Source: an uncultured Prevotella sp.
GTDB lineage: Bacteria; Bacteroidota; Bacteroidia; Bacteroidales; Bacteroidaceae
DNA length: 64,000 bases
Reading direction: 5' to 3'
NCBI GenBank assembly: GCA_900544825.1
Contig: UQWP01000001.1
Span: forward strand, 15,881-79,880
The notes beneath the pieces were generated by a model. That model saw only the letters and a list, made by a program, of their open reading frames with translations, had not been told where the DNA came from and did no database searches. Shown here one piece after another: positions 47,540 through 60,635 of this stretch. The stretch's first letter is position 1, and each line of letters begins with the position of its first letter. The translations under genes were made by a program, and so were the position numbers.

Positions 47540-47741
47540 ATTTTTAGATATTATTAATAATTTGTTGCAATCTTCTAAATATTCCGTGCAAAGTTACAGA
47601 AAATTAATGAGATAACAAAATTTATCTTCTTTCTTTACTAGAGTCTGCGCTTTTTTTCGTAAATTTGCAACTGAAATGATAATGTTTAGCTTAAAATGCT
47701 AAATCTACAGGAATATAAGTAAAGATATAAATATTTAGTAA

Positions 47742-48854
47742 ATGAATACATTGTTTCTTGTGCAGTTTGCTTGCTGCATTATAGTGTCGATGTTGGGCTT
47801 GATATTGGTTTTGTCTAAGTTTCAGATTCGCTGGTCCAACCGTCGTTACGAGGTGTCTCGTTGGCTCCTTGCTTTTTCTATGTTTGTACTTGCATGGCAT
47901 TATGTCTTGCAAATGACTTGTGGCTTCCGTGCTAAAGGCGATGAGATAGGAGCTGTTGTCAATGTTCTCTTCTATTCTCCTGTCTCCTTCATCATTTCCT
48001 ATGCGGTCTATAGCCTGGTATGCTATCGGAGCGGGCGGAAGAAGTTTGCCTTGATGGGATGTGTGAGTTATGCATTGATATTGATTTGTTTCTTTTTCGG
48101 ATACCATGATACTCCTAGGGGAATGCATATGGGCGAATGGCTCTATGTGATGCTCGCATTATTTGCTGTTACCATCATATATAGCGTTTATACCACGGTT
48201 ATCGAGATGCGTTATCATCGAAAGATTATCGAAGAAAACACCACGGAAGACTTGCTTCCTTTTGATAGATATGCCTATGCCAGTTATGGAATGGTGGGTA
48301 TTTTGGTTTTGGCGATGGTAGGCGCTATCTGCTATCGTCCGCTTCTTTATTGTGTGGCGCCCCTGATTCTCTTTTCTTTGATTTTCTTTACTATCACTTT
48401 CCTGGGATATGGTTATAATATGATTCCTGCGGAGGTGAGACTGGAGCAGGAAACTGCTGATGAACCTCTTGAGGTGATAGAAGTGAGTGAGGAAGTGGGT
48501 TTGGATTCTGAGAAATTTTCTATCATAGAATCGATGCTTGCCAGCTGGTGTGACAAGGGTGGCTATAGAGACAGTACGGTAAATATGCCGATGCTTTCTG
48601 TTAAGTTGGGCATTCCTCGCAATGAATTGAGCCTGTATTTCGAGAACTATCTGAAGAGCAGTTTCAGAATCTGGCTCAGTGATATCCGTTTCAAGGAGGC
48701 ACAGCGTATGCTGCTGGAAGAATGCAGGTACAGCAATGATACCATTTCTACAGAATGTGGCTTCTCATCCCATGCCCATCTCTATAAGATTTTTAAGGCA
48801 AAGACGGGATTTACACCAGGACAATGGAGAGATTCTGTTCGGAAAAACCGGTAG
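47742..48854 (+). CDS. AraC-family transcriptional regulator with N-terminal multi-pass membrane domain
   Basis: ~220-aa N-terminal region with 6-7 TM helices. C-terminal AraC HTH ...ISTECGFSSHAHLYKIFKAKTGFTPGQWR. Confidence 0.8.
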   Translation: MNTLFLVQFACCIIVSMLGLILVLSKFQIRWSNRRYEVSRWLLAFSMFVLAWHYVLQMTCGFRAKGDEIGAVVNVLFYSPVSFIISYAVYSLVCYRSGRKKFALMGCVSYALILICFFFGYHDTPRGMHMGEWLYVMLALFAVTIIYSVYTTVIEMRYHRKIIEENTTEDLLPFDRYAYASYGMVGILVLAMVGAICYRPLLYCVAPLILFSLIFFTITFLGYGYNMIPAEVRLEQETADEPLEVIEVSEEVGLDSEKFSIIESMLASWCDKGGYRDSTVNMPMLSVKLGIPRNELSLYFENYLKSSFRIWLSDIRFKEAQRMLLEECRYSNDTISTECGFSSHAHLYKIFKAKTGFTPGQWRDSVRKNR

Positions 48855-48870
48855 AATGCTGCGAAAAACA

Positions 48871-48922
48871 GTTTCATTCCTACCAATGAGACACCTATTT
48901 GATAGGAATGAAACTATTTTCT
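48871..48922 (+). terminator. Hairpin terminator after AraC-family gene (GTTTCATTCCTA...TAGGAATGAAAC + TATTTTCTT)
   Basis: 12-bp perfect stem with a 21-nt loop. Confidence 0.5.
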
Positions 48923-49011
48923 TGAGCAATGAAACTGTCAGGTTATAAGATTTTCATTATCTTTGCACAACTGAATAATAGTATTTGATAATGATTCTTA
49001 TTAATTTTTAA

Positions 49012-49272
49012 ATGAATTGCGATATGACAGGCTTTTCTTTATTTCAATCGACTGGTCTAGCCGATATAGTAGGACTATGTATTATATTATCCATTGCATT
49101 GGGGGCTTTTTCCCTGATGTGGATGGATTATAAAAAATATCTTGAAGAGTATGATAGCAAGCATTTTCATGTCTTGGATTTCGTACTCAAGGAGCAGTTG
49201 TATATATTTATCTTCCTCGTCTTTGCCTTCCTGGTAGGGGGTGAGATGTTGCTGAAAGCCTATATGTACTAG
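49012..49272 (+). CDS. Possible small membrane protein (2 TM helices)
   Basis: 86-aa ORF with two hydrophobic helices. No recognised family. Sits in a 500-bp gap. Confidence 0.3.
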   Translation: MNCDMTGFSLFQSTGLADIVGLCIILSIALGAFSLMWMDYKKYLEEYDSKHFHVLDFVLKEQLYIFIFLVFAFLVGGEMLLKAYMY

Positions 49273-49354
49273 TTCTCTTTTATTTTTTAGGATAAAAGAT
49301 TTGTTAGAACGATACTTTTTTTGTAATTTTGCACCGCAAAATATATAAAACACA

Positions 49355-50818
49355 ATGAAAATAGGATTTGACAACGAGAAGTATCTGAAGATTCAGTCCG
49401 AACATATCAAGGAGAGAATCTCACAGTTTGATGGAAAGCTTTACCTGGAATTGGGAGGTAAGCTTTTCGATGACCATCACGCCAGCCGCGTTTTGCCAGG
49501 TTTCCAGCCTGATAGTAAGCTGCGCATGTTTCAGAAGATTAGCGATAGCATCGAGATTGTTATCGTAATCAGTGCAGCTGATATAGAGAAAAACAAGAAG
49601 CGTGCCGATCTGGGTATCACTTACGATGAGGATGTGCTTCGCCTGCGTGGCGAGTTCCAAAACCGTGGCTTCATGGTGGGTTCTGTTGTTATTACTCATT
49701 TTAACGGTCAGCCTGCTGCCATCGCCTTCAAGCAGCGCTTGGAGCGTGAGGGTATCAAGACTTACTGCCATTATCTCATTGAGGGGTATCCTCATGATGT
49801 AGATCTTATTGCTTCTGATGAGGGTTTCGGAAAGAATGATTATGTTGAGACTGAGCGTCCGCTGGTAATTGTTACGGCTCCGGGTCCTGGTAGCGGTAAG
49901 ATGGCTGTCTGTCTGAGTCAGCTTTATAACGAGAACAAGCGTGGGGTGCGTGCAGGTTATGCCAAGTTTGAGACATTCCCTGTATGGAATCTCCCGTTGA
50001 AGCATCCGGTGAACATCGCTTACGAGGCTGCTACTGCCGATCTCAACGATGTGAACATGATCGACCCATTCCATCTGGAAGCTTACAATAAGATTGCCAT
50101 CAATTACAACCGTGACGTAGAGATTTATCCTGTGCTCAATGCGCTGTTCGAGGGTATCTACGGAAGCAATCCTTATAAGTCACCTACCGATATGGGTGTG
50201 AATATGGTGGGCTTCTGCATCTCTGATGATGAGGCTTGCTGCGAGGCATCCAAGAATGAGATCATCCGCCGTTACTATGCGGCTACCAACAAGATGGCAG
50301 CTGGTGCTTGTAACGAGGGTGAAATCAGCAAGATCCAGATGCTCTTCAAGCAGGCTAAGATTACTACCGCTTATCGCAAGGTAACTGTTGCGGCTAAGGA
50401 TCATAAGAAGGAGACGGGCCATACTTCTGCTGCGATTGAGCTGGAGGATGGTACAATCATCTGCGGTCATAGCAGCGAGTTGCTGGGATGTAGCGCAGCA
50501 TTGATTTTGAATGTTACCAAGCATCTGGCTGGTATCGACCACGAGTTGAAGTTGATTCCTCAGTCGATGATTGAGCCTATCCAGCATACCAAGATTAATT
50601 ATCTCGGCGGTCATAATCCTCGTCTTCATACCGATGAGGTGCTCGTTGCTCTCTCTGTTCTCTCGGAGAATGATGAGAACTGCAAGAAAGCTTTGGAGCA
50701 GTTGCCTAAGCTTCGTGGCTGTCAGGCTCATTGCACCGTGATGCTGAGTGATGTAGATCAGAAGATCTTCAAGAAGCTCGGAGTGGATATCACCTGCGAG
50801 CCTGTATTGAAGAAGTAA
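49355..50818 (+). CDS. DUF1846 / UPF0371 family protein
   Basis: 487 aa. MKIGFDNEKYLKIQSEHIKERISQFDGKLYLELGGKLFDDHHASRVLPGF matches the conserved UPF0371 N-terminus. Confidence 0.8.
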   Translation: MKIGFDNEKYLKIQSEHIKERISQFDGKLYLELGGKLFDDHHASRVLPGFQPDSKLRMFQKISDSIEIVIVISAADIEKNKKRADLGITYDEDVLRLRGEFQNRGFMVGSVVITHFNGQPAAIAFKQRLEREGIKTYCHYLIEGYPHDVDLIASDEGFGKNDYVETERPLVIVTAPGPGSGKMAVCLSQLYNENKRGVRAGYAKFETFPVWNLPLKHPVNIAYEAATADLNDVNMIDPFHLEAYNKIAINYNRDVEIYPVLNALFEGIYGSNPYKSPTDMGVNMVGFCISDDEACCEASKNEIIRRYYAATNKMAAGACNEGEISKIQMLFKQAKITTAYRKVTVAAKDHKKETGHTSAAIELEDGTIICGHSSELLGCSAALILNVTKHLAGIDHELKLIPQSMIEPIQHTKINYLGGHNPRLHTDEVLVALSVLSENDENCKKALEQLPKLRGCQAHCTVMLSDVDQKIFKKLGVDITCEPVLKK

Positions 50819-50862
50819 TTTCGGTTTGCCTCGTATAGAAGAAGCAGGTTTGTTTTAAATAA

Positions 50863-50925
50863 TATACCCCAGAAAAGGTATAGTTAATCATATAGTTTGA
50901 TTAATTATACCTATTCGGGGGTAAT
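50863..50925. repeat. Two copies (one inverted, one direct) of the ~22-bp imperfect palindrome ATTATACCyTTTCGGGGGTAAAT, downstream of the hipT-like gene
   Basis: TATACCCCAGAAAAGGTATA (50863-50882) and ATTATACCTATTCGGGGGTAAT (50904-50925). Confidence 0.7.
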
Positions 50926-50947
50926 TCTTTGTATTTTCTACAGAATA

Positions 50948-51889
50948 TTATCTCAGTGCCATGACTCTGCTGAGAATCAGCTTTTTGTATTCCTTCTTCA
51001 TGCCATCAGGCAGGAAAGAGGCATCTATCAGGTCGAGCCATTTCACGATGGAGCGACGGAACTTCTTGGCGATGTTATTGATTACTTTCTCGCTGAGTCC
51101 CGATGCTGTCATCACCTTGATGAAATCTGATTTCAGAATCTTTCTTTTTCTTCCATTCAGTGTCAGGGCGAGTTCCTCGGTATCTTCTGGCATCACTATC
51201 TTCGTGCAGAGTAGGTCGTAGGCTGGGGTCAGACCATAGCCCAGTTTTCTGTTGTTATAGAGTGAGAAGTTCTTGAGGTGCATGTCGGCGTTGCCGGTAA
51301 TCCACGAGAAGATGACTACCTCCCAATAGTTCACAAGATCGAGCTGTGAGAAGGATGAATACTTTTTGATGAGTTTGGCTACCTGTTCGTAGGAACCTTT
51401 GTATTTGTATTCGGTAAGGCGCTCGGACAACTGGCACATATCCTCCATCGGTACTTTGGTTCCATCGTCCAGTCGGTCTATTCTTCGAGTGATGTAACAG
51501 AGTTCACCATCGGAAAAGCGTATCAGACTATGTGGAACCACGGCGATTTTGGCAGCTTCGGCGAGATGCATTGTGAGGTCTTCGATTTCGGGAAGACACC
51601 GATAGCGATCGGTCTGTGGCTTCAGGATGTATTTGCCCCAAAGTCCTACGATGGTAAATCGGGATGGTTCGTTCTTGCCGCCAGGGTTCACATCGAGCGA
51701 GAGTTTCGCCTGCACACCCGTGAGGGTGGTTTGTGCGCGCACTACCTGTTTAGCCAAGTCGCCTATTTCCTTTCTTACATAGGGTAGGACTGGGGCTTCC
51801 TTGGTGCCGAAGAGTTTCTTGGCGCAAGCAGGGTGGTAATCTACCTGTCCTGGCTTGAGCGGTTTATAGCAATATAGACATTTCTCCAT
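50948..51889 (-). CDS. HipA-family Ser/Thr kinase toxin, kinase (C-terminal) part only - HipT-like
   Basis: 313 aa. Gly-rich loop TLTGVQAKLSL, catalytic motif GNADMHLKNFSL (GNxDxHxKNxS), Mg-binding PAYDLL. Lacks the HipA N-terminal subdomain, which is encoded separately just upstream. Confidence 0.85.
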   Translation of the reverse strand: MEKCLYCYKPLKPGQVDYHPACAKKLFGTKEAPVLPYVRKEIGDLAKQVVRAQTTLTGVQAKLSLDVNPGGKNEPSRFTIVGLWGKYILKPQTDRYRCLPEIEDLTMHLAEAAKIAVVPHSLIRFSDGELCYITRRIDRLDDGTKVPMEDMCQLSERLTEYKYKGSYEQVAKLIKKYSSFSQLDLVNYWEVVIFSWITGNADMHLKNFSLYNNRKLGYGLTPAYDLLCTKIVMPEDTEELALTLNGRKRKILKSDFIKVMTASGLSEKVINNIAKKFRRSIVKWLDLIDASFLPDGMKKEYKKLILSRVMALR

Positions 51890-51910
51890 ATTTCTTTTTC
51901 CTTTCTAGTT

Positions 51911-52228
51911 TTATTCTACAGGGATTACGCTGACGGCTCCAATGCAATCCTTGCAGCAGGCGAGGAGGAGCGACATTCTATCCCGCTGGTTGATTTTCCA
52001 ACTGCTTTCTGCGATATTCAGCAGCCATCCTTCGGGTATCAGTCCATCGAAGAAGGGAAACAGCACGGTATCGTGGTAGGGCTCGTCGGATAGCGGGAGC
52101 GTCAGGCTTACGGCTTCCGCACCATCCGATGCCAGATATCCGGCATCATAGGCAAAGGTAAAGCCCGTCTCGTCTTCCGTCAGCAGACCTACGTATTGGT
52201 CGTAGAGATAAATTTTTCCTTGTTTCAT
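51911..52228 (-). CDS. HipA N-terminal subdomain-only protein (HipS-like antitoxin candidate)
   Basis: 105 aa. ...GLIPEGWLLNIA...LLLACCKDCIGAVSVIP matches the HipA N-terminal domain signature (LLPEG...GxDCxGA). 21 bp upstream of the kinase gene. Confidence 0.8.
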   Translation of the reverse strand: MKQGKIYLYDQYVGLLTEDETGFTFAYDAGYLASDGAEAVSLTLPLSDEPYHDTVLFPFFDGLIPEGWLLNIAESSWKINQRDRMSLLLACCKDCIGAVSVIPVE

Positions 52229-52240
52229 GGGATTCTATTT

Positions 52241-52447
52241 TTATTCTTTTTTGATAGGAACGGGACCGATTTCCTGACCGAAGAGGAGGAGAACCTGATT
52301 AACTTTGTCGAGTCGCAGCGTTTCCTTTCCCTGCTCCAGTTCTCTTACGAATCTGAGCCCTACGCCCGATTTCGCTGCTAAATCCACCTGTGTCAATCCG
52401 AATTGCTTGCGCATCTCCTTGACGTATGATGATAATGTATTGCTCAT
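52241..52447 (-). CDS. XRE-family HTH DNA-binding protein (HipB-like)
   Basis: 68 aa. MRKQFGLTQVDLAAKSGVGLRFVRELEQGK is a classic HTH_XRE. 12 bp upstream of the HipS-like gene. First gene of the three-gene operon. Confidence 0.75.
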   Translation of the reverse strand: MSNTLSSYVKEMRKQFGLTQVDLAAKSGVGLRFVRELEQGKETLRLDKVNQVLLLFGQEIGPVPIKKE

Positions 52448-52458
52448 ATATTATTTGT

Positions 52459-52706
52459 TTTATACCCTTTCGGGTAATATGATGATATCTATCTTATAGT
52501 ATTATACCCTATCGGGTAAAATGTATAATGTATAATATCGTATTATACCCTTTCGGGGGCAAATATACGAATAAAAAATGAAAATACCCCCGAAAAGGTA
52601 TAATTTATAATATCATTTAACAAAATTATACCTTTTCGGGGGTAAATCCGTAACGAATCCTTTGGGAAATAAAAAAAAGCGTAACGAACACCTTTTTCGG
52701 GTAATC
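52459..52706. repeat. Regularly spaced array of six copies (five direct, one inverted) of the ~22-bp motif ATTATACCyTTTCGGGGGTAAAT upstream of hipB-like gene; ~42-bp period
   Basis: Copies at 52459-52478, 52501-52520, 52542-52564, 52584-52604 (inverted), 52626-52647 and 52688-52706 (partial, inside the yidC terminator loop). AT-rich spacers. Confidence 0.75.
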
Positions 52707-52723
52707 CATTACGCTTTTATTTT
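52675..52723. terminator. Hairpin (AAAAGCGTAA ... TTACGCTTTT) downstream of yidC; loop contains the last partial copy of the 22-bp motif
   Basis: 10-bp stem with flanking A/T runs. Confidence 0.45.
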
Positions 52724-52736
52724 TATCTAGAAAACT

Positions 52737-54674
52737 TTATTTTCCGAGATTATTCTTTTTCTCGTTCAGTTCTGCCTGCTTACGCTGCATCTCTTCCTGC
52801 TGCTGGCGCTGCAACTCCTGGAGGGCCTGCATTCTAGCCATGAGGCCGCTTGCCTTCTTAGGGTTGTTCTTGTTCTCCTGATAGCGCTTCTCCAGGATGG
52901 CGAGGAGTTTCTCGTCGTTGGTGGTCTTGCGCAGAGTCCACATGATTGCAGCACTGAAAAACAATGAGATGAAGTAGTAGAAGTTCAAACCTGCTGAGTA
53001 GTCATTGAACATGAAGAAGAACATCAATGGCATGAGATACATCATCCACTGCATCATCTTCATCTGCTCTGCCTGCTGACCTACCATCTGGTCACGCTGC
53101 TGGCGCATAGTCATCCATGAGTACAACAGGTTGGCTACGCAGAAGAGGATACAGGTCAAACTCAAGTGATCACCAATCAACCAGATGTTGGTATTCCACT
53201 CGAAGATTGGGTCGAAGGTACTCAAGTCGTCCATCCACAGGAACTTCTCACCACGAAGCTGGATGGCGTTAGGAACGAAGTTGAACATCGCAACCCATAC
53301 CGGCATCTGAATCAGCATTGGTAAGCAGCCAGACAGTGGGCTTACACCATACTTGGCATACTCAGCCATCATCGCCTGCTGCTTCTGCATCTGGTCCTCA
53401 GGCTTGTTGAACTGAGCGGTAGCTGCCTCGAGCTTTGGCTTCAATACACGCATCTTGGCAGAACTCATATAGCTCTTCTTTACCATAGGGTAGGTGATGA
53501 GCTTGAGAAGCAATGTGATGAGAATCAATACGATACCCATTGGGAATACATTGCTCAACCAGTCGAATACGTAGAGTGTGAAGAAACGGTTGATCCAGCG
53601 GATGATAGGCCATCCCAGATATACGAGCTTCTGGAACTCCAGGTCCTTGCCGAAGGTGCTCTCCTTCTCTGTATTCTTCAGAATCTGGAAGTCGTTAGGA
53701 CCGAAGTAGAACTCAAACTCAGACGCCTTCTTGCCAGTTGGGTCGAAGGCTGTCTTCATCTTAGCCTGGAACTGCTTCAGGTAGCCCGAACCCTTCTCCT
53801 GAGGGATAGAGGTCATGAAGGCATCCTTGTCAAAGTTATCCTTAGCTACCATGATAGCTGAGAAGAACTGGTTCTTGAAAGATACCCAGTCGATAGTCTC
53901 TTCAATCTTCTCGTCGATTTTCTCGCTGCCCTCGTTCAGATGGTCGGTGCCGCCCTCTGCCTCATGATAGGTAAGGGTAGTGTAGCGGTTCTCGAACATG
54001 AAGCCACGCTCCTGCTGGCGCGCCTTGTCGCTCCAGTCGATGCTCATCTTGTTGCAGCTAGGTGAGAACAGTCCTGCCATACCTTCTGCCTGCAGACTCA
54101 TGTGGAGCATGTAGTCGTCGCCGAGGGTATAGGTCATACTGAGGGTCTTGCCTGGACCAGCCACAGCAGTCATGGTGACAGACTTGTCGGTCACGTTGGA
54201 TGGTGTGAAATAGAGATCGCTGGTGATGATGTTGGCCTCCTTTGCCTCGAGCATGAACTTGAGGCTCTGGTCGTTGCCGTCGAAGAGAGTAACGTCCTTC
54301 TGGTCGGCAGAGCCATCTTTCACCTTGAGGTTGTGACCCACGTATCCCTTGATGACTGCCTTCTCGACAGTACCACCCTTGGTGTTGAGAGTCAACTCAA
54401 CCTTCTCATTTTTCAAAACTACTTTCTGAGCCTGACCCTTCAGCGCCGAATAGAAGAGGGCTGTAGAGTCTGCCTCAATTTTAGCCTTAGCATCCGCCTG
54501 GCGCTTAACAGCGGCAGCCTTGCTGGCTTTTTCCATCTCGGCGTGCTTCGCCTTGGCGATGGAGTCCTGAACGAATGCCGCTCTCTGCTCTTCGGCTGAT
54601 GGCTGGTTGTACCAGCTAAAGCCTATCAGCACTACGGCAATCAGGAGGAAACCGATAATGTTGTTCTTATTCAT
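52737..54674 (-). CDS. yidC: Membrane protein insertase YidC (long Bacteroidota form)
   Basis: 645 aa. N-terminal TM, large periplasmic domain, C-terminal 5-TM core, basic C-terminal tail. Confidence 0.9.
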   Translation of the reverse strand: MNKNNIIGFLLIAVVLIGFSWYNQPSAEEQRAAFVQDSIAKAKHAEMEKASKAAAVKRQADAKAKIEADSTALFYSALKGQAQKVVLKNEKVELTLNTKGGTVEKAVIKGYVGHNLKVKDGSADQKDVTLFDGNDQSLKFMLEAKEANIITSDLYFTPSNVTDKSVTMTAVAGPGKTLSMTYTLGDDYMLHMSLQAEGMAGLFSPSCNKMSIDWSDKARQQERGFMFENRYTTLTYHEAEGGTDHLNEGSEKIDEKIEETIDWVSFKNQFFSAIMVAKDNFDKDAFMTSIPQEKGSGYLKQFQAKMKTAFDPTGKKASEFEFYFGPNDFQILKNTEKESTFGKDLEFQKLVYLGWPIIRWINRFFTLYVFDWLSNVFPMGIVLILITLLLKLITYPMVKKSYMSSAKMRVLKPKLEAATAQFNKPEDQMQKQQAMMAEYAKYGVSPLSGCLPMLIQMPVWVAMFNFVPNAIQLRGEKFLWMDDLSTFDPIFEWNTNIWLIGDHLSLTCILFCVANLLYSWMTMRQQRDQMVGQQAEQMKMMQWMMYLMPLMFFFMFNDYSAGLNFYYFISLFFSAAIMWTLRKTTNDEKLLAILEKRYQENKNNPKKASGLMARMQALQELQRQQQEEMQRKQAELNEKKNNLGK

Positions 54675-54750
54675 TATTATTTTTATTGTTTTATTTTCTC
54701 TGAAGAGACAGCAAACGTTATGCCATTCTGCTGTCTGAAGCCAGCCAGCG

Positions 54751-56367
<1,617 letters not shown>

Positions 56368-56492
56368 TTAAATTAGAATTATTTGGGTGCAAAGTTACGA
56401 TAAAATTATGAATTAGCCAAAATATTTGTAAAGAATGGCGTTGAATTTAGAATTATTTTGTTACCTTTGTGCCCAAATTAGTATATGAAGGA

Positions 56493-57770
56493 ATGAAAAT
56501 AAGATTTGGATTACTCATTTTAGCTTTGCTTGCGGGTGCTGTGACGGCAGATGCCCAACGTTCCCGCAGGCATAATGTGGTGGTGAAAACTCCATCGATA
56601 GTGAAAAGTTATGTGGACTCGCTGGCTCACATCAGGGAGCGTATCGACTCTACAGAGATGTCTTTGGATGACTCCCGATATGCCATGCTCTTCACCCCAC
56701 TCACGTATTATCGCTCGCCTGCCAATCATTTCCTGCGCCTCCGTCCTGATGGAGGGGTAGGCGATTCGCTTGGCGTGATGCTCGATAAGACCTTGATGGA
56801 TGTTTATCTCAGCCGACCAGACCTGGTGAAGACTACGCAGAGACACCTGGAAGAGGTGGGCGCTCCGATTGTGGCGGATTCTAAAGCCAAAAAGCCGAAG
56901 CGCGACATCATAGAAGAGGTGGCGCCTAAGGTCTTCGAACCGGAAACTGCGCCATCGGACATCGTAATCTTCAAGCCTAATTTCTGGACTTTCGGCGGAG
57001 ATTACTATCTGCAGTTCCTGCAAAACTATGTATCTGACAACTGGTATAAAGGTGGTGAGAGCAACTACTCTCTGTTGGGACGCGTAACGATGATGGCGAA
57101 CTACAACAACAAGCAGAAGGTGAAGTGGGAGAATAAGCTGGAGATGCGATTGGGCTACCAGACTTCCAAGGGAGACTCGGTGCATTCGCTCAAGACATCC
57201 GACGACTTGATCCGATACACCAGCAAGTTGGGACTCCAGGCTTCCCGCAAATGGTATTATACCATCCAGATGGTGGCGCAGACGCAGTTTGCCCATGGTT
57301 ACAAGAGTAATGACAAGAAGGTTTATTCCGATTTCTTCTCACCATTCAATCTGAACCTCTCTGTCGGTATGGATTATACGGTAGATTGGTTGAATCACAG
57401 GCTGAAGGGTAGTGCCCATCTGGCTCCTCTGGCGTTCAACTGGAAGTATGTGGGCCGTGAGGATCTTGCCACAAGATACGGTTTGAAGGAGGGACAGCAT
57501 GGCATGACCGATTACGGTTCTGAGTGTACCTTCGATCTGACCTGGCAGGTGATGGAGAACCTGAAGTGGAAGACCCGTCTCTGGGGATACACTACTTACA
57601 AGCGTGCTGAGATTGAGTGGGAAAATACGATTACCTTCCAGTTCAATCGTTATATTTCATCGAATATCTTCCTCTATCCTCGTTTCGATGATGGAGCAAA
57701 GCGTAAGGATGATCAGAGCTATTGGCAGTTCAAGGAGTTCATGTCTATCGGATTCTCTTACTCATTCTAG
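56493..57770 (+). CDS. Secreted/outer-membrane hypothetical protein (possibly DUF3078-like)
   Basis: Signal peptide MKIRFGLLILALLAGAVTADAQ (the ORF opens at 56469). Tyr/Trp-rich beta-strand pattern. C-terminus ...IGFSYSF is typical of an outer-membrane barrel. Confidence 0.6.
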   Translation: MKIRFGLLILALLAGAVTADAQRSRRHNVVVKTPSIVKSYVDSLAHIRERIDSTEMSLDDSRYAMLFTPLTYYRSPANHFLRLRPDGGVGDSLGVMLDKTLMDVYLSRPDLVKTTQRHLEEVGAPIVADSKAKKPKRDIIEEVAPKVFEPETAPSDIVIFKPNFWTFGGDYYLQFLQNYVSDNWYKGGESNYSLLGRVTMMANYNNKQKVKWENKLEMRLGYQTSKGDSVHSLKTSDDLIRYTSKLGLQASRKWYYTIQMVAQTQFAHGYKSNDKKVYSDFFSPFNLNLSVGMDYTVDWLNHRLKGSAHLAPLAFNWKYVGREDLATRYGLKEGQHGMTDYGSECTFDLTWQVMENLKWKTRLWGYTTYKRAEIEWENTITFQFNRYISSNIFLYPRFDDGAKRKDDQSYWQFKEFMSIGFSYSF

Positions 57771-57838
57771 CAAGAGATTGAGCATATATATGATAAAGGC
57801 TCGTTCCAAATCACTGGAACGAGCCTTTATCATATCTG

Positions 57839-59008
57839 TTAGAAGCGGAAGCAGACTTCTGCATCTGCCATGGAGTAATTGTGCTTGGCGAGGGTCTTGT
57901 CATTCACCAATGCATACTCGGTGAGGATGCTGATTCGCTTGCCGATGTGGAAGTTCAAACCTGCCTCATACTGCGTCTTCTGCATGTTGTTCTTGCCGTT
58001 AGGCTGATACATGTCGTAACGTGCCTTGATGTCGATTCGGCTGTTCTTTGGCAGCTGAGCCAATGGGGCGATGACGAGTCCGTAAACACCCTGAGCCTTA
58101 TCGCCGATATTTGCATTCAGATTGCAGTCCTTGGCGTTGGCGTCGTTGAAGTTGGTGATGCTCTTGGCAAAAGCCTTTCCTGTGGAGTGGATATATTCGG
58201 AGCGAACGGTCCAGCCATCCTGCTTGTATTCGAATGAGAAGGCATAGCGGTTTTGGCTGAGCTTGCGAACGCCAGAGCGTTTCTGAATGTCGGCAGTATA
58301 GGAGGCATCATGCTCGTCGGTCCAGGTTCCCTTTCTTGCATAAGAACCGGTCCATCCGAAGGCACCGATGCGCATGCCGCTTACTGGCATTACCCATACA
58401 CCTCCGATGATGTTCTTCTGATTATCAACGTCCTTTGTGTTGGTTCCCTGTCCGTTGAATACGCCCACCTGATAGTGCAGCAGGTTTCTGCCGTTGGCAT
58501 TCTTGAGGAAATCACCCTGCAGCTGCAGACCGATGTCACGACCGTTGGAAGCATGCTCTCCGGCACGGTCACTGAAGCCAGCCAGCTTACTTACGTTCTG
58601 AGAGTATCCCATGAATCCCTGATCGATAGGGTGCATCGGATTCTCGAAGGTGAATGGGTTCTTGAACTGTCCTATCTTCACCTTGAAGTACTCGTACTTC
58701 TGCCACTCAGCAAACAGGTCCACCATTCTCGGGCTTGAACCGAGGTTGGAAGTATTGCCGTTAAACTGAATCTGGGTCTTCCAGTAGAAGTCGTCTGCAA
58801 TGCGACCTTCTAAGGCGATACGGCCCATTCGGATGTTGAACGAGTTGGATTCAGCGTTCTTCTGTCCGCTATACTGATACTGGGTCATGCCATAACCCGA
58901 CAGCTTTACGTTGCTCAACCACGAAGGCAATTCGATGGTCTGCTTCTTTTGGGCGCTGGCTGCGACCGTAGTCAAAGCCATGAGCGTCAGGATGATACCT
59001 TTTTTCAT
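57839..59008 (-). CDS. Porin (phosphate-selective porin O/P-like family) with signal peptide
   Basis: Start at MKKGIILTLMALTTVAASAQ (59008). Barrel pattern. C-terminal ...AEVCFRF. The upstream extension MRQRNKPKNKIEIK is likely not translated. Confidence 0.7.
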   Translation of the reverse strand: MKKGIILTLMALTTVAASAQKKQTIELPSWLSNVKLSGYGMTQYQYSGQKNAESNSFNIRMGRIALEGRIADDFYWKTQIQFNGNTSNLGSSPRMVDLFAEWQKYEYFKVKIGQFKNPFTFENPMHPIDQGFMGYSQNVSKLAGFSDRAGEHASNGRDIGLQLQGDFLKNANGRNLLHYQVGVFNGQGTNTKDVDNQKNIIGGVWVMPVSGMRIGAFGWTGSYARKGTWTDEHDASYTADIQKRSGVRKLSQNRYAFSFEYKQDGWTVRSEYIHSTGKAFAKSITNFNDANAKDCNLNANIGDKAQGVYGLVIAPLAQLPKNSRIDIKARYDMYQPNGKNNMQKTQYEAGLNFHIGKRISILTEYALVNDKTLAKHNYSMADAEVCFRF

Positions 59009-59033
59009 CTTAATTTCTATTTTGTTTTTAGGT

Positions 59034-60635
59034 TTATTTCTTTGCCGCAAGCTCCTCTGCAGTCAAGTCTTCCGCTTTAGCAGCTTCCAATGCGAGCTTT
59101 TCTGCCTCCTTGGCAGCCTTGGCTTCAGCTATCGCCTTTTCACGCTCTCTGCGCTCCTTCTTCTTCTGCTTGATTTCAGCGTCGCTGCGCTTCTCGAGCA
59201 ATACCACGTTCTCTACGTGAGGAGTATGAGGGAACATATCAACTGGCTGAACAGCAGCTGCTTTGTAGTGGTCGTCCATCAGCTGCAGGTCGCGTGCCTG
59301 AGTAGCAGGGTTGCAGCTTACATATACGATGCGCTTTGGCGCTGCGTTCAGAATCACGTTCACTACATCAGGATGCATTCCGGCACGTGGAGGGTCAGTG
59401 ATGATGACATCTGGGCGACCGTGCTGAGCGATAAAGTCATTGGTCAGGATATCCTTCATATCGCCTGCGTAGAAGAGGGTGTTCTCGATGTTGTTCACCT
59501 GGGAATTCACCTTGGCATCCTCGATAGCCTCTGGTACGTATTCGATACCGATGACCTTCTTTGCTTTGTGAGCCACGAAGTTGGCGATGGTTCCGGTACC
59601 GGTGTAGAGGTCGTAAACCAGCTCGTCGCCGGTAAGGTTGGCAAACTCGCGAGCCACGCAGTAGAGGTGGTAAGCCTGCTCGGTATTGGTCTGATAGAAA
59701 CTCTTAGGACCTACCTTGAACTTCAGGTCTTCCATCAGCTCGAAGATGTGGTCGTTGCCCTTGAAGAGGCTGAGCTCCAGGTCGTTGATGGTATCGTTGC
59801 CCTTTTGGTTATCTACATACATGAGTGAGGTAATCTGAGGGAACTTGTCAGCCACCTGCTGCATCAGCTCCAAGGCTCTCTGCTCATCTCCCTCCTCATC
59901 GTAATGGAACTGGAATACGAGCATCCACTCGCCGGTGTTCGAATTGCGGATCATCATGTCGCGGAGCAAACCGTGCTGCTCACGAAGATCGTAGAAGGTA
60001 TAGTTGTGAGAGTCTGCGTATTCGAAAACGAAGTTGCGGATTTCGTTGCAGAGGTCATCCATCAGCCAGCACTTCTTGATTGGATAAATCTTGTCGAAGG
60101 CACCGGTGATATGGAAACCGATGGCATTCTGGGCATGGCGTTCCTTGAGAGAAGTTACGGTATCATCTTTTTTCTGAGGGAGTTGAGCCAATTCTTCTGA
60201 CGTAAACCAGCGCTTGTTGCTGCATCCGAACTCAATCTTGTTGCGGTACTCCTGGGTTTTCACGCTGCCCATGATAGGGCGGAATTCAGGGAGTTCGATC
60301 TTGCCGATGCGGGTGAGCTGGTCTTCCACCTGCTTCTGCTTCGCCTTGATCTGCTCCTCGTAAGGAAGGTTCTGCCATTTGCAACCGCCACAGATGCCGA
60401 AGTGTTCGCACATCGGTTCCTGTCTCACGTCGCTCTTCTTGATGAAGCGAACTACCTTCGCCTCGCAATACTTATGTTTTTTCTTAACTACCTGCAAATC
60501 TACTACATCGCCAGGCACGCAGAAAGGCACGAAGATGACCTGGTCATCTACGCGAGTGATGCACTTACCCTCGGCTGCTACAGCCTCGATGGTGATGTTC
60601 TCCAAGAGAGGTAATGGTTTACGTTTTCTTGCCAT
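59034..60635 (-). CDS. rlmD: 23S rRNA (uracil-C5)-methyltransferase RlmD-like (TRAM + Fe-S + SAM-MTase) with Lys/Ala/Glu-rich C-terminal tail
   Basis: TRAM domain N-terminus. 4-Cys cluster CEHFGICGGCKWQ. MTase motifs (DLYTGTGTI; PPRAGM). ~60-aa KAE-rich tail ...KQKKKERREREKAIAEAKAAKEAEKLALEAAKAEDLTAEELAAKK. Confidence 0.85.
   Translation of the reverse strand: MARKRKPLPLLENITIEAVAAEGKCITRVDDQVIFVPFCVPGDVVDLQVVKKKHKYCEAKVVRFIKKSDVRQEPMCEHFGICGGCKWQNLPYEEQIKAKQKQVEDQLTRIGKIELPEFRPIMGSVKTQEYRNKIEFGCSNKRWFTSEELAQLPQKKDDTVTSLKERHAQNAIGFHITGAFDKIYPIKKCWLMDDLCNEIRNFVFEYADSHNYTFYDLREQHGLLRDMMIRNSNTGEWMLVFQFHYDEEGDEQRALELMQQVADKFPQITSLMYVDNQKGNDTINDLELSLFKGNDHIFELMEDLKFKVGPKSFYQTNTEQAYHLYCVAREFANLTGDELVYDLYTGTGTIANFVAHKAKKVIGIEYVPEAIEDAKVNSQVNNIENTLFYAGDMKDILTNDFIAQHGRPDVIITDPPRAGMHPDVVNVILNAAPKRIVYVSCNPATQARDLQLMDDHYKAAAVQPVDMFPHTPHVENVVLLEKRSDAEIKQKKKERREREKAIAEAKAAKEAEKLALEAAKAEDLTAEELAAKK

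What the first reader, a model, noticed from the sequence alone, without database searches (positions are those of the whole stretch)
50948..52447. Compact three-gene split-HipA toxin-antitoxin cassette (HipB-like / HipS-like / HipT-like) inserted between convergent core genes
The 313-aa kinase has the HipA catalytic motifs (GNADMHLKNFSL, PAYDLL, Gly-rich loop TLTGVQAK) but lacks the HipA N-terminal subdomain. That subdomain is encoded as a separate 105-aa ORF directly upstream (LIPEGWLL...CCKDCIGAVS), preceded by a 68-aa XRE HTH protein. Intergenic gaps are 12 and 21 bp. This is the HipBST architecture, where the N-subdomain protein HipS, rather than HipB, neutralises the kinase HipT, which in E. 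coli O127 phosphorylates TrpS. Bacteroidota versions have not been functionally studied to my knowledge. Here the Gly-rich loop carries Thr-Leu-Thr where E. coli HipT has its Ser-Ile-Ser autophosphorylation sites. The cassette is the only clearly accessory module in a core-gene neighbourhood (DUF1846 gene on one side, yidC-pyrG on the other).
Basis: partly seen in the sequence, partly recalled or inferred. Interest (0 to 1): 0.7.

Follow-up and report, generated by a model that had tools for sequence, protein, structure and literature searches.

The report
Split-HipA (HipBST) toxin-antitoxin cassette
This is an intact three-gene HipB/HipS/HipT kinase toxin-antitoxin module in a Segatella (Prevotella) copri-type gut bacterium: an ordinary new member of a known family, untested in this phylum, with a clearly readable operator array and a conserved zinc-finger-like motif.

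Summary
Three minus-strand ORFs sit 12 and 21 bp apart: an XRE/HipB repressor (68 aa), a HipA-N-subdomain protein (HipS, 105 aa) and a HipA_C kinase lacking that subdomain (HipT, 313 aa). HipT is closest to Legionella pneumophila HipT (E 1e-51; model TM 0.91), not to E. coli O127 HipT, so TrpS should not be assumed as the target. All three genes are under strong purifying selection, and the gene order holds in about 70 related loci, so this is not a decayed hipA. Lin et al. 2023 already reported Legionella-type HipBST as widespread in Bacteroidota, so the kind is known.

Four things were not in the finding:
- Five (T/C)ACCC-N4-GGGT(A/G) palindromes lie 41-42 bp apart upstream of hipB. One abuts a Bacteroidetes -7 promoter box. 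The layout is conserved across diverged cassettes and co-varies with the HipB recognition helix.
- An all-or-none C-x2-C...H-x2-C motif sits in HipT's N-terminal mini-domain. It is degenerate in both solved HipTs.
- The features are hybrid: a Legionella-like kinase, but a Thr-Leu-Thr loop and an E. coli-like HipS Trp.
- The site is polymorphic. Some strains carry hicAB, an orphan hipB and a rhodanese gene instead of hipST.

Interest is modest.

The parts
52241..52447 (-). hipB: 68-aa XRE-type helix-turn-helix repressor and first gene of the operon. The putative recognition helix is GVGLRFVRELEQGK.
   Evidence: HTH_3. TIGR03070 couple_hipB scores 83 bits against a cutoff of 71.65. The best solved relative is HipB(Lp) 8ezt, E 2.7e-6. 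dN/dS is 0.03-0.04. The recognition helix co-varies with the operator half-site.
51911..52228 (-). hipS: 105-aa homologue of HipA N-subdomain 1 and the predicted antitoxin. It carries the P65-E-G-W68 motif.
   Evidence: Couple_hipA 95.3 bits. PDB matches are HI_0666 at 1.5e-18, E. coli HipS at 5e-13 and HipS(Lp) at 8e-11. PEGW is invariant in 70 aligned HipS sequences and aligns with E. coli HipS E63/W65. dN/dS is 0.03-0.06.
50948..51889 (-). hipT: 313-aa HipA-core Ser/Thr kinase and the predicted toxin. Features: an N-terminal mini-domain with C4, C7, H19 and C22; a Gly-rich loop T55-L-T57-G-V-Q-A-K62; the catalytic motif G199-N-A-D202-M-H-L-K-N207; and the Mg motif P222-A-Y-D225.
   Evidence: HipA_C 158.8 bits. 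HipT(Lp) matches at E 1e-51 and E. coli HipT at 1.7e-14. The family profile matches HipT(Lp) at 2e-88. The AF2 model has pLDDT 93 and TM 0.90-0.91 to 7wcf/7vkc. Motif conservation is shown.
51890..51910 (-). hipS-hipT spacer of 21 nt. hipS and hipT are in the same frame, but the hipS stop TAA and a second in-frame stop (TAG) two codons later separate them.
   Evidence: Read directly from the sequence.
52463..52476 (.). Operator-like palindrome S5, TACCC-GAAA-GGGTA. Its distal end is at -29 from the hipB ATG.
   Evidence: The same site at the same position appears in related loci.
52505..52518 (.). Operator-like palindrome S4, TACCC-GATA-GGGTA, 42 bp from S5.
52546..52559 (.). Operator-like site S3, CCCCC-GAAA-GGGTA, 41 bp from S4. 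It lies directly downstream of the -7 promoter box, so the transcription start probably falls inside it.
52560..52567 (-). TATATTTG, which matches the Bacteroidetes -7 promoter element TAnnTTTG (consensus from my own knowledge). It abuts operator S3.
   Evidence: In most of the related hipB upstream regions listed there, a TAnnTTTG (or a near-match such as TATCTTTG or TATTTTTG) directly abuts an operator.
52585..52644 (.). Sites S2 (52585-52602) and S1 (52627-52644), each TATACCTTTTCGGGGGTA, in inverted orientation. Together they form a perfect 22-nt-arm palindrome. They occupy the O2/O3 positions of the array and also look like a terminator hairpin followed by a U-run on the hipB strand.
   Evidence: 0 mismatches; the motif is expected 0.07 times in the window. 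(I2, 100% complementary). (-38 kcal/mol, z -6.85). (in L095 and L124 these are the second and third sites).
50863..50923 (.). Downstream palindrome S6/S7: two operator-like sites 41 bp apart with 26-nt arms, lying between the hipT stop and the DUF1846 stop. It is a paralogue of S1/S2. It probably acts as a bidirectional terminator; whether HipB binds it is unknown.
   Evidence: I1; z -5.4 to -6.5. It is retained next to DUF1846 in L009 and L092, which lack hipST, and is absent from L094.

Best explanation
This is a functional tripartite HipBST-type (split-HipA) type II toxin-antitoxin operon of the Legionella-like subclade, sitting in the chromosome of a Segatella copri-complex bacterium.

Proposed mechanism:
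1. HipT is an active HipA-family Ser/Thr kinase. When free, it arrests growth by phosphorylating an essential target. The target is inferred and its identity unknown. An aminoacyl-tRNA synthetase is the family precedent, but TrpS cannot be assumed.
2. HipS, the detached HipA N-subdomain 1, binds the kinase N-lobe. It holds the Gly-rich loop (T55-L-T57-G-V-Q-A-K) in the ejected, inactive position. Its conserved P-E-G-W68 probably wedges into the loop pocket, as W65 does in E. coli HipS (inferred by homology).
3. HipB is a minimal XRE helix-turn-helix dimer. It binds an array of (T/C)ACCC-N4-GGGT(A/G) palindromes spaced 41-42 bp apart, roughly four helical turns and so all on one face of the DNA. 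There are five copies here. One abuts the TAnnTTTG -7 promoter box, so binding represses hipBST transcription. HipT/HipS probably bridge HipB dimers cooperatively, as in Legionella and E. coli. This step is inferred from comparative sequence evidence.
4. T55 and T57 are the likely trans-autophosphorylation sites that tune activity and neutralisation (inferred).
5. [quoted passage not shown] Its function is unknown.
For: Domain architecture and gaps.

Closest solved relatives are exactly the three HipBST components:
- HipT(Lp) at 1e-51, and 2e-88 with the family profile.
- HipS of H. influenzae, E. coli and Legionella.
- HipB(Lp).

The AF2 model has pLDDT 93 and pTM 0.92, and only the P-loop (residues 53-57) is disordered. 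Foldseek gives TM 0.90-0.91 to full-length HipT(Lp) and 0.85 to E. coli HipT.

Catalytic residues are conserved in 106-108 of 109 aligned sequences (the window plus 108 representatives): G58, Q60, K62, K90, N200, D202, H204, N207 and D225.

For the window against L094 and L010, dN/dS is 0.03-0.06 for hipB, hipS and hipT at dS 0.43-0.73. The hipB-hipS-hipT order holds in every one of the roughly 70 metagenomic loci with room upstream, at HipT identities of 56-98%.

Operators:
- The motif occurs 5 times in the window, all at the cassette, against 0.07 expected.
- There are 117 hits in 63 distinct 250-bp hipB upstream regions, against 0.064 per 250 bp in the coding control.
- Spacing between neighbouring hits is 41 bp (42 times), 42 bp (12 times), 40 bp (5 times) and 82 bp (4 times).
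- In most of these regions the -7 box abuts an operator.
- The N4 spacer occurs in both orientations (GAAA and TTTC). This points to a DNA palindrome read by a protein rather than an RNA hairpin.
- The HipB helix GVGLRFVRE pairs with ACCC/GGGT half-sites, while GVGL(C/N/S)FVR(N/Q) pairs with CAT(C/T)C...ATATA.

The HipS PEGW motif is invariant in 70 aligned sequences.

Functional precedent: HipB(Lp) binds three evenly spaced operators, one of them 24 nt upstream of the start codon. HipS is the antitoxin and acts by P-loop ejection (PMC10653801, PMC9325769, PMC10627512).
Against: Nothing here is experimental. Toxicity, neutralisation by HipS, HipB-DNA binding, autophosphorylation and zinc binding are all inferred.

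- The target of the closest characterised homologue is unknown (PMC10653801).
- Some strains keep hipB without hipST (L092, L009), so HipB may have a role beyond this operon.
- In the window the promoter-proximal operator is S3, and S4/S5 lie in a roughly 110-nt leader. This departs from the usual three-operator layout, and its effect is unknown.
Confidence: 0.8

Rival explanations
1. The locus is a decaying hipBA module. On this reading the 105-aa ORF is the N-terminal remnant of a once-fused hipA broken by a nonsense or frameshift mutation.
For: hipS and hipT are in the same reading frame, only 21 nt apart. Fused relatives of about 440 aa exist, with Couple_hipA, the CCHC mini-domain and HipA_C in one chain.
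Against: Two in-frame stops (TAA, then TAG two codons later) separate the genes, and HipT has its own conserved Met-x-x-Cys start. hipS has dN/dS 0.03-0.06 at dS about 0.45. The split order is conserved in about 70 loci down to 56% HipT identity, and in the experimentally studied Legionella and E. coli systems. Fused forms have a linker of about 25 aa that is absent here.
Confidence: 0.02
2. The module's main role is abortive-infection anti-phage defence. The kinase would be released on infection, rather than serving persistence or addiction. This is compatible with the same biochemistry.
For: There are weak matches to the PADLOC candidate system PDC-M03: HipT to M03A at 2e-4 and HipS to M03B at 2e-4. 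The site is a hypervariable hotspot that swaps small TA-type cassettes such as hicAB, as defence islands do. Gerdes et al. 2021 (PMC8262856) propose phage defence for other Hip kinase families.
Against: The PADLOC scores are far too weak for membership. No other defence genes or phage genes flank the cassette. There are no experimental data for any HipBST.
Confidence: 0.12
3. The cassette is a recently mobile unit bounded by the two similar palindromes (50863-50923 and 52585-52644). These would act as terminal repeats or recombination sites, rather than as operators or terminators.
For: The two 60-bp palindromes are 78-82% identical and flank hipBST. Allele breakpoints fall just beside them: 50929/50930 and about 52645-52672.
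Against: The upstream palindrome sits exactly at the O2/O3 positions of an operator array that is conserved, at 41-bp spacing, in cassettes elsewhere that have no downstream copy. No transposase or integrase is present and no target-site duplication was seen. The motif is absent from the other 62 kb of the window. The cassette lies at the same site in clades whose flanks differ by 5-12%.
Confidence: 0.05
4. HipT is a non-toxic regulatory kinase and HipB a general transcription factor, making this a signalling module rather than a toxin-antitoxin pair.
For: Orphan hipB is kept intact when hipST is lost, with dN/dS 0.026 in L092 and 0.10 in L009. In Legionella HipT, P-loop phosphorylation does not switch off the kinase and no toxic substrate was identified (PMC10653801).
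Against: Legionella HipT is toxic in both Legionella and E. coli and is neutralised by HipS (PMC10653801, PMC9325769). The operator motif occurs nowhere else in the 64-kb window, which gives no sign of a wider regulon.
Confidence: 0.05

Closest known systems
HipBST of Legionella pneumophila (Lpg2368-2370; PDB 7vkb, 7vkc, 7wcf, 8ezr, 8ezt)
   Same: It has the same three-gene order. HipT is the best match in sequence (E 1e-51; profile 2e-88) and in fold (TM 0.90-0.91). HipB is a minimal HTH of about 70 aa and is the best PDB match. Several evenly spaced operators lie upstream, the proximal one about 20-30 nt before the hipB start (PMC10653801 compared).
   Different: - Gly-rich loop: T-L-T here, S54-V-Q in Legionella.
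- HipS: P-E-G-W68 here, where HipS(Lp) has I65/M66 and no Trp (PMC10653801).
- HipT N-terminus: C4/C7/H19/C22 here, where HipT(Lp) has C/T/S/G.
- Operators: 41-42 bp period and 3-5 copies here, against three 18-nt sites with 53-bp gaps.
- Gene junctions: genes separated by 12 and 21 bp here, against 4-bp overlaps (PMC9325769).
HipBST of enteropathogenic E. coli O127:H6 (PDB 7ab3-7ab5)
   Same: The architecture is the same. The HipS E-G-W motif aligns with E63/W65, the residue that blocks the kinase (PMC10627512). There are two hydroxyl residues at the positions of S57 and S59. HipT has an N-terminal mini-domain.
   Different: The kinase is only distantly similar (E 1.7e-14, 23-24% identity, TM 0.85) and lacks the E. 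coli loop insertions. The loop has Thr in place of Ser. E. coli HipB is longer, with an N-terminal extension. The TrpS target is demonstrated only for the E. coli, Haemophilus and Tolumonas clade. The E. coli mini-domain lacks three of the four Cys/His.
HipBA of E. coli K-12
   Same: It has the same kinase superfamily and catalytic motifs. HipS corresponds to HipA N-subdomain 1 (E 8e-7). It has a HipB HTH repressor with multiple palindromic operators. From my own knowledge, the K-12 operators are TATCC-N8-GGATA, four copies.
   Different: K-12 has two genes. There HipB, not the N-subdomain, is the antitoxin. HipA lacks the mini-domain (PMC10627512). The operator sequence and spacing differ.
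Fused HipA-like kinases of the same clade (about 427-457 aa, for example P0147, P0160, P0165; possibly the 'HipBA-Bu' type of Lin et al. 2023)
   Same: They are 39-44% identical to the window's HipT over its whole length, including the CCHC mini-domain and the Gly-rich loop. Their N-terminal Couple_hipA domain corresponds to HipS.
   Different: They are a single polypeptide with a linker of about 25 aa between the HipS-like domain and the CCHC motif. Their genomic context was not examined here.

Membership tests
HipBST tripartite (split-HipA) toxin-antitoxin family | A three-gene operon in the order hipB-hipS-hipT, on one strand, tightly spaced | tested here: met
   The gaps are 12 and 21 bp. 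The same order is seen in all roughly 70 related loci with enough upstream sequence.
HipBST tripartite (split-HipA) toxin-antitoxin family | HipT is a HipA-core kinase that lacks N-subdomain 1 and has an intact Gly-rich loop, catalytic motif and Mg-binding motif | tested here: met
   HipA_C covers aa 55-284 and there is no Couple_hipA domain. G58, Q60, K62, D202, N207 and D225 are conserved. The fold matches HipT structures.
HipBST tripartite (split-HipA) toxin-antitoxin family | HipS is a protein of about 100 aa homologous to HipA N-subdomain 1, encoded directly upstream of hipT | tested here: met
   Couple_hipA 95 bits. There are PDB matches to three HipS proteins and to the HipA N-terminus.
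HipBST tripartite (split-HipA) toxin-antitoxin family | HipB is an HTH protein encoded first in the operon | tested here: met
   HTH_3 and TIGR03070 couple_hipB above cutoff. HipB(Lp) is the best PDB match.
HipBST tripartite (split-HipA) toxin-antitoxin family | HipB binds operators in the hipBST promoter (autoregulation) | not testable with these tools
   The comparative support is strong: about 29-fold enrichment, a 41-bp period, the -7 box abutting an operator, and helix/half-site covariation. Binding itself needs EMSA or footprinting.
HipBST tripartite (split-HipA) toxin-antitoxin family | HipT is growth-inhibitory and is neutralised by HipS, not by HipB | not testable with these tools
   This needs expression experiments. 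Precedent comes from PMC6581861, PMC9325769 and PMC10653801.
HipBST tripartite (split-HipA) toxin-antitoxin family | A Ser/Thr autophosphorylation site beside the Gly-rich loop | tested here: met
   T55 and T57 align with S57/S59 of E. coli HipT and with S54/Q56 of HipT(Lp). This is sequence-level evidence only; phosphorylation was not tested.
Legionella-type HipBST subclade (HipBST-Lp) | HipT is closer to Lpg2370 than to E. coli O127 HipT | tested here: met
   E 1e-51 against 1.7e-14. Profile E 2e-88 against 4e-38. TM 0.91 against 0.85.
Legionella-type HipBST subclade (HipBST-Lp) | An S-psi-Q Gly-rich loop and a HipS without the Trp wedge (I65/M66) | tested here: not met
   The loop is T-L-T and HipS has W68. 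These are features of the Legionella proteins themselves. Among 109 aligned sequences (the window plus 108 representatives), S-psi-Q is rare (SIQ 3 times) and (S/A/T)-psi-(T/P) is common.
E. coli O127-type HipBST subclade | HipT phosphorylates TrpS | not testable with these tools
   There is no basis for this from sequence. The closer Legionella homologue is not rescued by TrpS or GltX (PMC10653801).
hipBA pseudogene (broken fused hipA) | The junction is alignable as a frameshift or nonsense lesion, and the fragment is under relaxed selection | tested here: not met
   There are two in-frame stops and an independent conserved start. dN/dS is 0.03-0.06. The split is conserved across about 70 loci.

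The most novel reading that the evidence does not exclude
[quoted passage not shown] It is intact in 102 of 108 family representatives but degenerate in both solved HipTs. In Bacteroidota it might work as a metal- or redox-sensitive switch that controls HipS/HipB binding or kinase release. Combined with a still-unknown, non-TrpS target, that would make this clade a mechanistically distinct HipBST variant in one of the most abundant human gut bacteria.
Probability: 0.15. Interest if true: 0.55.

Novelty: new member of a known kind. Interest (0 to 1): 0.3.

Why it matters
HipBST has been studied only in Proteobacteria (E. coli O127, Haemophilus, Tolumonas, Legionella).

This exact HipT protein is listed in 680 blocks of the public assembly collection; the places shown are ENA metagenome assemblies, and related loci come from human gut metagenomes. 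Its host, Segatella copri, is a major and strain-diverse human gut commensal.

The locus offers a compact, well-defined system for three questions:
- What does the Legionella-type HipT phosphorylate? This was left open by Lin et al. 2023.
- How does a 41-bp-periodic operator array with variable copy number (3, 4 or 5) set repression?
- Is the mini-domain a zinc site?

None of this changes the picture of the family. It extends it.

Tried and rejected
1. Searching for a clean empty site. The genome scan with DUF1846 and exact-protein look-ups of HipT and YidC found no close relative with DUF1846 and yidC adjacent and nothing between them. What turned up instead was alternative alleles: hicAB-hipB-rhodanese, and hipBST-rhodanese. 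In more distant Prevotella (L014, L018, L019, L021) yidC lies directly upstream of DUF1846 on the same strand with no cassette, but the arrangement is inverted and so not a like-for-like empty site.
2. The sigma-70 promoter and terminator scan was uninformative, with hits at or below shuffle expectation. This is expected, since Bacteroidetes use a different promoter consensus. A direct TAnnTTTG search was informative.
3. A PDB search with the first 67 aa of HipT alone found nothing. The family profile was needed to align the N-termini.
4. RNA-hairpin reading of the 14-mers (a GAAA tetraloop). This was rejected because the spacer occurs in both orientations and varies freely, and because in the usual layout the transcription start would fall inside the proximal site.
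5. PADLOC membership. Only weak PDC-M03 hits were found.
6. Measuring the Cys/His geometry in the AF2 model. The coordinates are not exposed to the script environment. Only secondary structure and pLDDT could be used: a hairpin at residues 3-10, a helix at 20-27, and pLDDT 93-97.
Full report
**Observation**

The gaps are 12 and 21 bp.

| ORF | Pfam / NCBIfam result |
|---|---|
| 313 aa | HipA_C, 158.8 bits, aa 55-284 |
| 105 aa | Couple_hipA, 95.3 bits |
| 68 aa | HTH_3; TIGR03070 'couple_hipB' 83 bits, above its cutoff of 71.65 |

The quoted motifs are all present. The flanks are DUF1846 (+) on one side and yidC-pyrG (-) on the other.

**Identity of the parts**

Searched against solved structures, each protein finds its HipBST counterpart.
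- The kinase matches Legionella pneumophila HipT at E 1e-51 over aa 54-309, and E. coli O127 HipT only at 1.7e-14.
- With a profile of 38 family members, the match to HipT(Lp) is 2e-88 over the full length, against 4e-38 for E. coli HipT.
- The 105-aa protein matches H. influenzae HI_0666 (1.5e-18), E. coli HipS (5e-13), HipS(Lp) (8e-11) and the N-terminus of HipA (8e-7).
- The best match of the 68-aa protein is HipB(Lp).

An AlphaFold2 model of the kinase is confident (pLDDT 93.1, pTM 0.92). Only the Gly-rich loop (residues 53-57) is disordered. The model superposes on full-length HipT(Lp) with TM 0.90-0.91 and RMSD 2.3 Å, and on E. coli HipT with TM 0.85.

**Not a pseudogene**

hipS and hipT share a frame, but two stops separate them (TAA, then TAG two codons later). 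HipT has its own conserved M-x-x-C start.

Comparing the window with two diverged alleles (L094, L010; dS 0.43-0.73) gives dN/dS of 0.03-0.04 for hipB, 0.03-0.06 for hipS and 0.03-0.04 for hipT. A metagenome scan returned 80 loci with HipT 56-98% identical. Every locus with enough upstream sequence has hipB-hipS-hipT in that order.

Fused relatives of about 440 aa do exist, with Couple_hipA, a linker and the same kinase in one chain. The split form here is therefore one stable state of a family that occurs both split and fused.

**Host and population context**

The DUF1846 protein is 98% identical to that of Segatella copri HDE04. An 11.9-kb stretch of the window is 100% identical to an ENA assembly contig (L089). 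The exact HipT protein is listed in 680 blocks of the assembly collection.

The site is polymorphic. Three arrangements occur among contigs that encode the identical YidC protein:
- hipB-hipS-hipT, as in the window.
- hicA-hicB, the operator array, hipB, then a rhodanese gene, with no hipST (L092). S. copri HDE04 (L009, YidC 99% identical) is similar but lacks the array.
- hipB, a 115-bp GC-rich repeat, hipS-hipT, then rhodanese (L094).

The accessory nature of hipST is therefore supported, but no clean empty site was found, and hipB is present in every allele seen. The cassette sits at the same place in clades whose flanks differ by 5-12%, and no mobility genes are nearby. 'Inserted' is therefore not demonstrated.

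**Operator array (not in the finding)**

The motif TATACC(Y)TTTCGGGGGTA occurs five times in the 64-kb window, all at the cassette, against 0.07 expected. Two shorter copies also lie at the cassette.

Read on the hipB strand, five palindromes of the form TACCC-N4-GGGTA precede hipB at 41-42 bp intervals:

| Site | Window coordinates |
|---|---|
| S5 | 52463-52476 |
| S4 | 52505-52518 |
| S3 | 52546-52559 |
| S2 | 52585-52602 |
| S1 | 52627-52644 |

S1 and S2 are variants with N6 spacing.

The pattern is general.
- In 63 distinct 250-bp hipB upstream regions there are 117 matches, against 0.064 per 250 bp in the coding control.
- Neighbouring sites are 41 bp apart 42 times, 42 bp 12 times, 40 bp 5 times and 82 bp 4 times.
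- The common layout is three sites at about -20, -61 and -102.
- In most of these regions a TAnnTTTG element (or a near-match such as TATCTTTG or TATTTTTG) directly abuts an operator. TAnnTTTG is the Bacteroidetes -7 promoter box (consensus from my own knowledge). The transcription start should therefore fall within the site.
- Within the S. copri complex the array has 3 (L095, L124), 4 (L096-L100) or 5 (window) units, which is copy-number variation of a 41-bp unit.

Two observations support HipB as the binder.
- HipB proteins with the helix GVGLRFVRELEQGK go with ACCC/GGGT half-sites.
- Those with GVGL(C/N/S)FVR(N/Q)LEQGK go with CAT(C/T)CGAAAnAATATA in the same layout.

The N4 spacer occurs in both orientations, which argues for DNA recognition rather than an RNA hairpin.

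This parallels, with different sequence and spacing, the three evenly spaced HipB(Lp) operators shown by EMSA. The proximal one of those lies 24 nt upstream of the start codon (PMC10653801).

**Flanking palindromes**

S1/S2 form a perfect 22-nt-arm inverted repeat. A paralogous pair, S6/S7 (50863-50923, 26-nt arms), lies between the hipT and DUF1846 stops. Both fold strongly as RNA (z -5.4 to -6.9) and are followed by U-rich tracts. They probably insulate the operon as terminators.

S6/S7 stays beside DUF1846 even where rhodanese replaces hipST (L092, L009). It is absent from L094 and from cassettes outside the S. copri complex. Whether HipB binds it is open.

**Kinase features**

T55-L-T57 aligns with S57-I-S59 of E. 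coli HipT and with S54-V-Q56 of HipT(Lp). Baerentsen et al. already list a T[IV][TP] group among HipT loops (PMC10627512). Among 109 aligned sequences (the window plus 108 representatives), (S/A/T)-psi-(T/P) is the rule.

HipS carries P-E-G-W68. The motif is invariant in 70 aligned HipS sequences and aligns with E63/W65 of E. coli HipS, the residue that wedges into the kinase (PMC10627512). HipS(Lp) has I65/M66 there (PMC10653801). The module thus combines a Legionella-like kinase body with E. coli-like regulatory residues.

**N-terminal motif**

C4, C7, H19 and C22 are all present in 102 of the 108 full-length representatives. Five others keep only the first Cys and have lost the other three together, and none shows a partial loss. 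The four residues are invariant in the 38-sequence alignment.

In the model, C4 and C7 lie on a short hairpin, and H19 and C22 sit at the start of helix 20-27, with pLDDT 93-97. That is the arrangement of a zinc knuckle plus helix.

HipT(Lp) (MKHCPITYEKIS..YSQRGL) and E. coli HipT (ANCRILLTPL..YSTQGL) keep only the first Cys. The eLife paper calls this region a mini-domain of unknown significance (PMC10627512). Zhen et al. note that residues 4-28 of Lpg2370 align with the E3 ligase FANCL (PMC9325769). A full-text search found no paper that links HipT with zinc. Zinc binding is an inference. The model coordinates could not be inspected.

**Mechanism and what is known**

The best-supported model has four parts.
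- HipT is a kinase toxin.
- HipS neutralises it by holding the Gly-rich loop out.
- HipB represses the operon from a phased operator array, probably cooperatively with HipS/HipT.
- The loop threonines are autophosphorylation sites.

The target is unknown. In Legionella neither TrpS nor GltX rescues growth, and phosphoproteomics gave no validated substrate (PMC10653801).

Lin et al. 2023 reported that HipBST-Lp homologues are widely distributed in the FCB superphylum. The existence of Bacteroidota HipBST is therefore known, though no member has been tested. A four-term search (HipA, Bacteroides, toxin-antitoxin, HipS) returned only that work.

**Verdict**

The finding is real and correctly interpreted, but it is a new member of a known kind. 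The added details are incremental and testable: the operator grammar, the probable zinc knuckle, the hybrid regulatory residues and the allelic hotspot. Interest is scored at 0.3.

Noticed in passing
window 50819-52736; loci L009 8462-9751, L092 6939-8655, L094 6939-9533: The DUF1846-yidC intergenic site is a hotspot that swaps small cassettes among Segatella copri-complex strains. Alleles seen are hipBST, hicAB + hipB + rhodanese, and hipBST + rhodanese. An orphan hipB stays intact (dN/dS 0.03-0.10) where hipST is gone.
   Followed up: partly
L094 7421-7535 and 9361-9533: GC-rich hairpin repeats (GCCCTG(T)AAAGGGC, GCCCAGGGCATCGCCCTGGGT) that look REP- or MITE-like. They are inserted between hipB and hipS, and they replace the downstream palindrome beside DUF1846.
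   Followed up: no
window about 52677-52715 (minus strand): The likely yidC terminator (AGCGTAA ... TTACGCT followed by a T-run) carries an operator-like TTACCCGAAAAAGGTG in its loop. This stretch is conserved in alleles that lack the array (94.5% identical to L009).
   Followed up: no
L138, L139, L141, L144 (upstream of hipB): In one subgroup of cassettes the usual 14-mers are replaced by GTACCC ... GGGTAC half-sites with much longer spacers, lying further upstream. This suggests a different operator geometry with the same HipB helix.
   Followed up: no
P0236 (632 aa), P0257 (623 aa): Some relatives have the CCHC mini-domain and kinase at the N-terminus, followed by about 300 further residues with no Pfam match. 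They could be HipL-like or another fused architecture.
   Followed up: no
window 47737-59674: This stretch is 100% identical over 11,938 bp to ENA assembly contig ERZ1304030 NODE_25 (locus L089), so the source organism is sampled in public metagenome assemblies.
   Followed up: yes
L014, L018, L019, L021: In more distant Prevotella, yidC lies directly upstream of DUF1846 on the same strand with a gap of about 150 bp. The convergent arrangement in the window therefore reflects an inversion in the S. copri lineage.
   Followed up: partly
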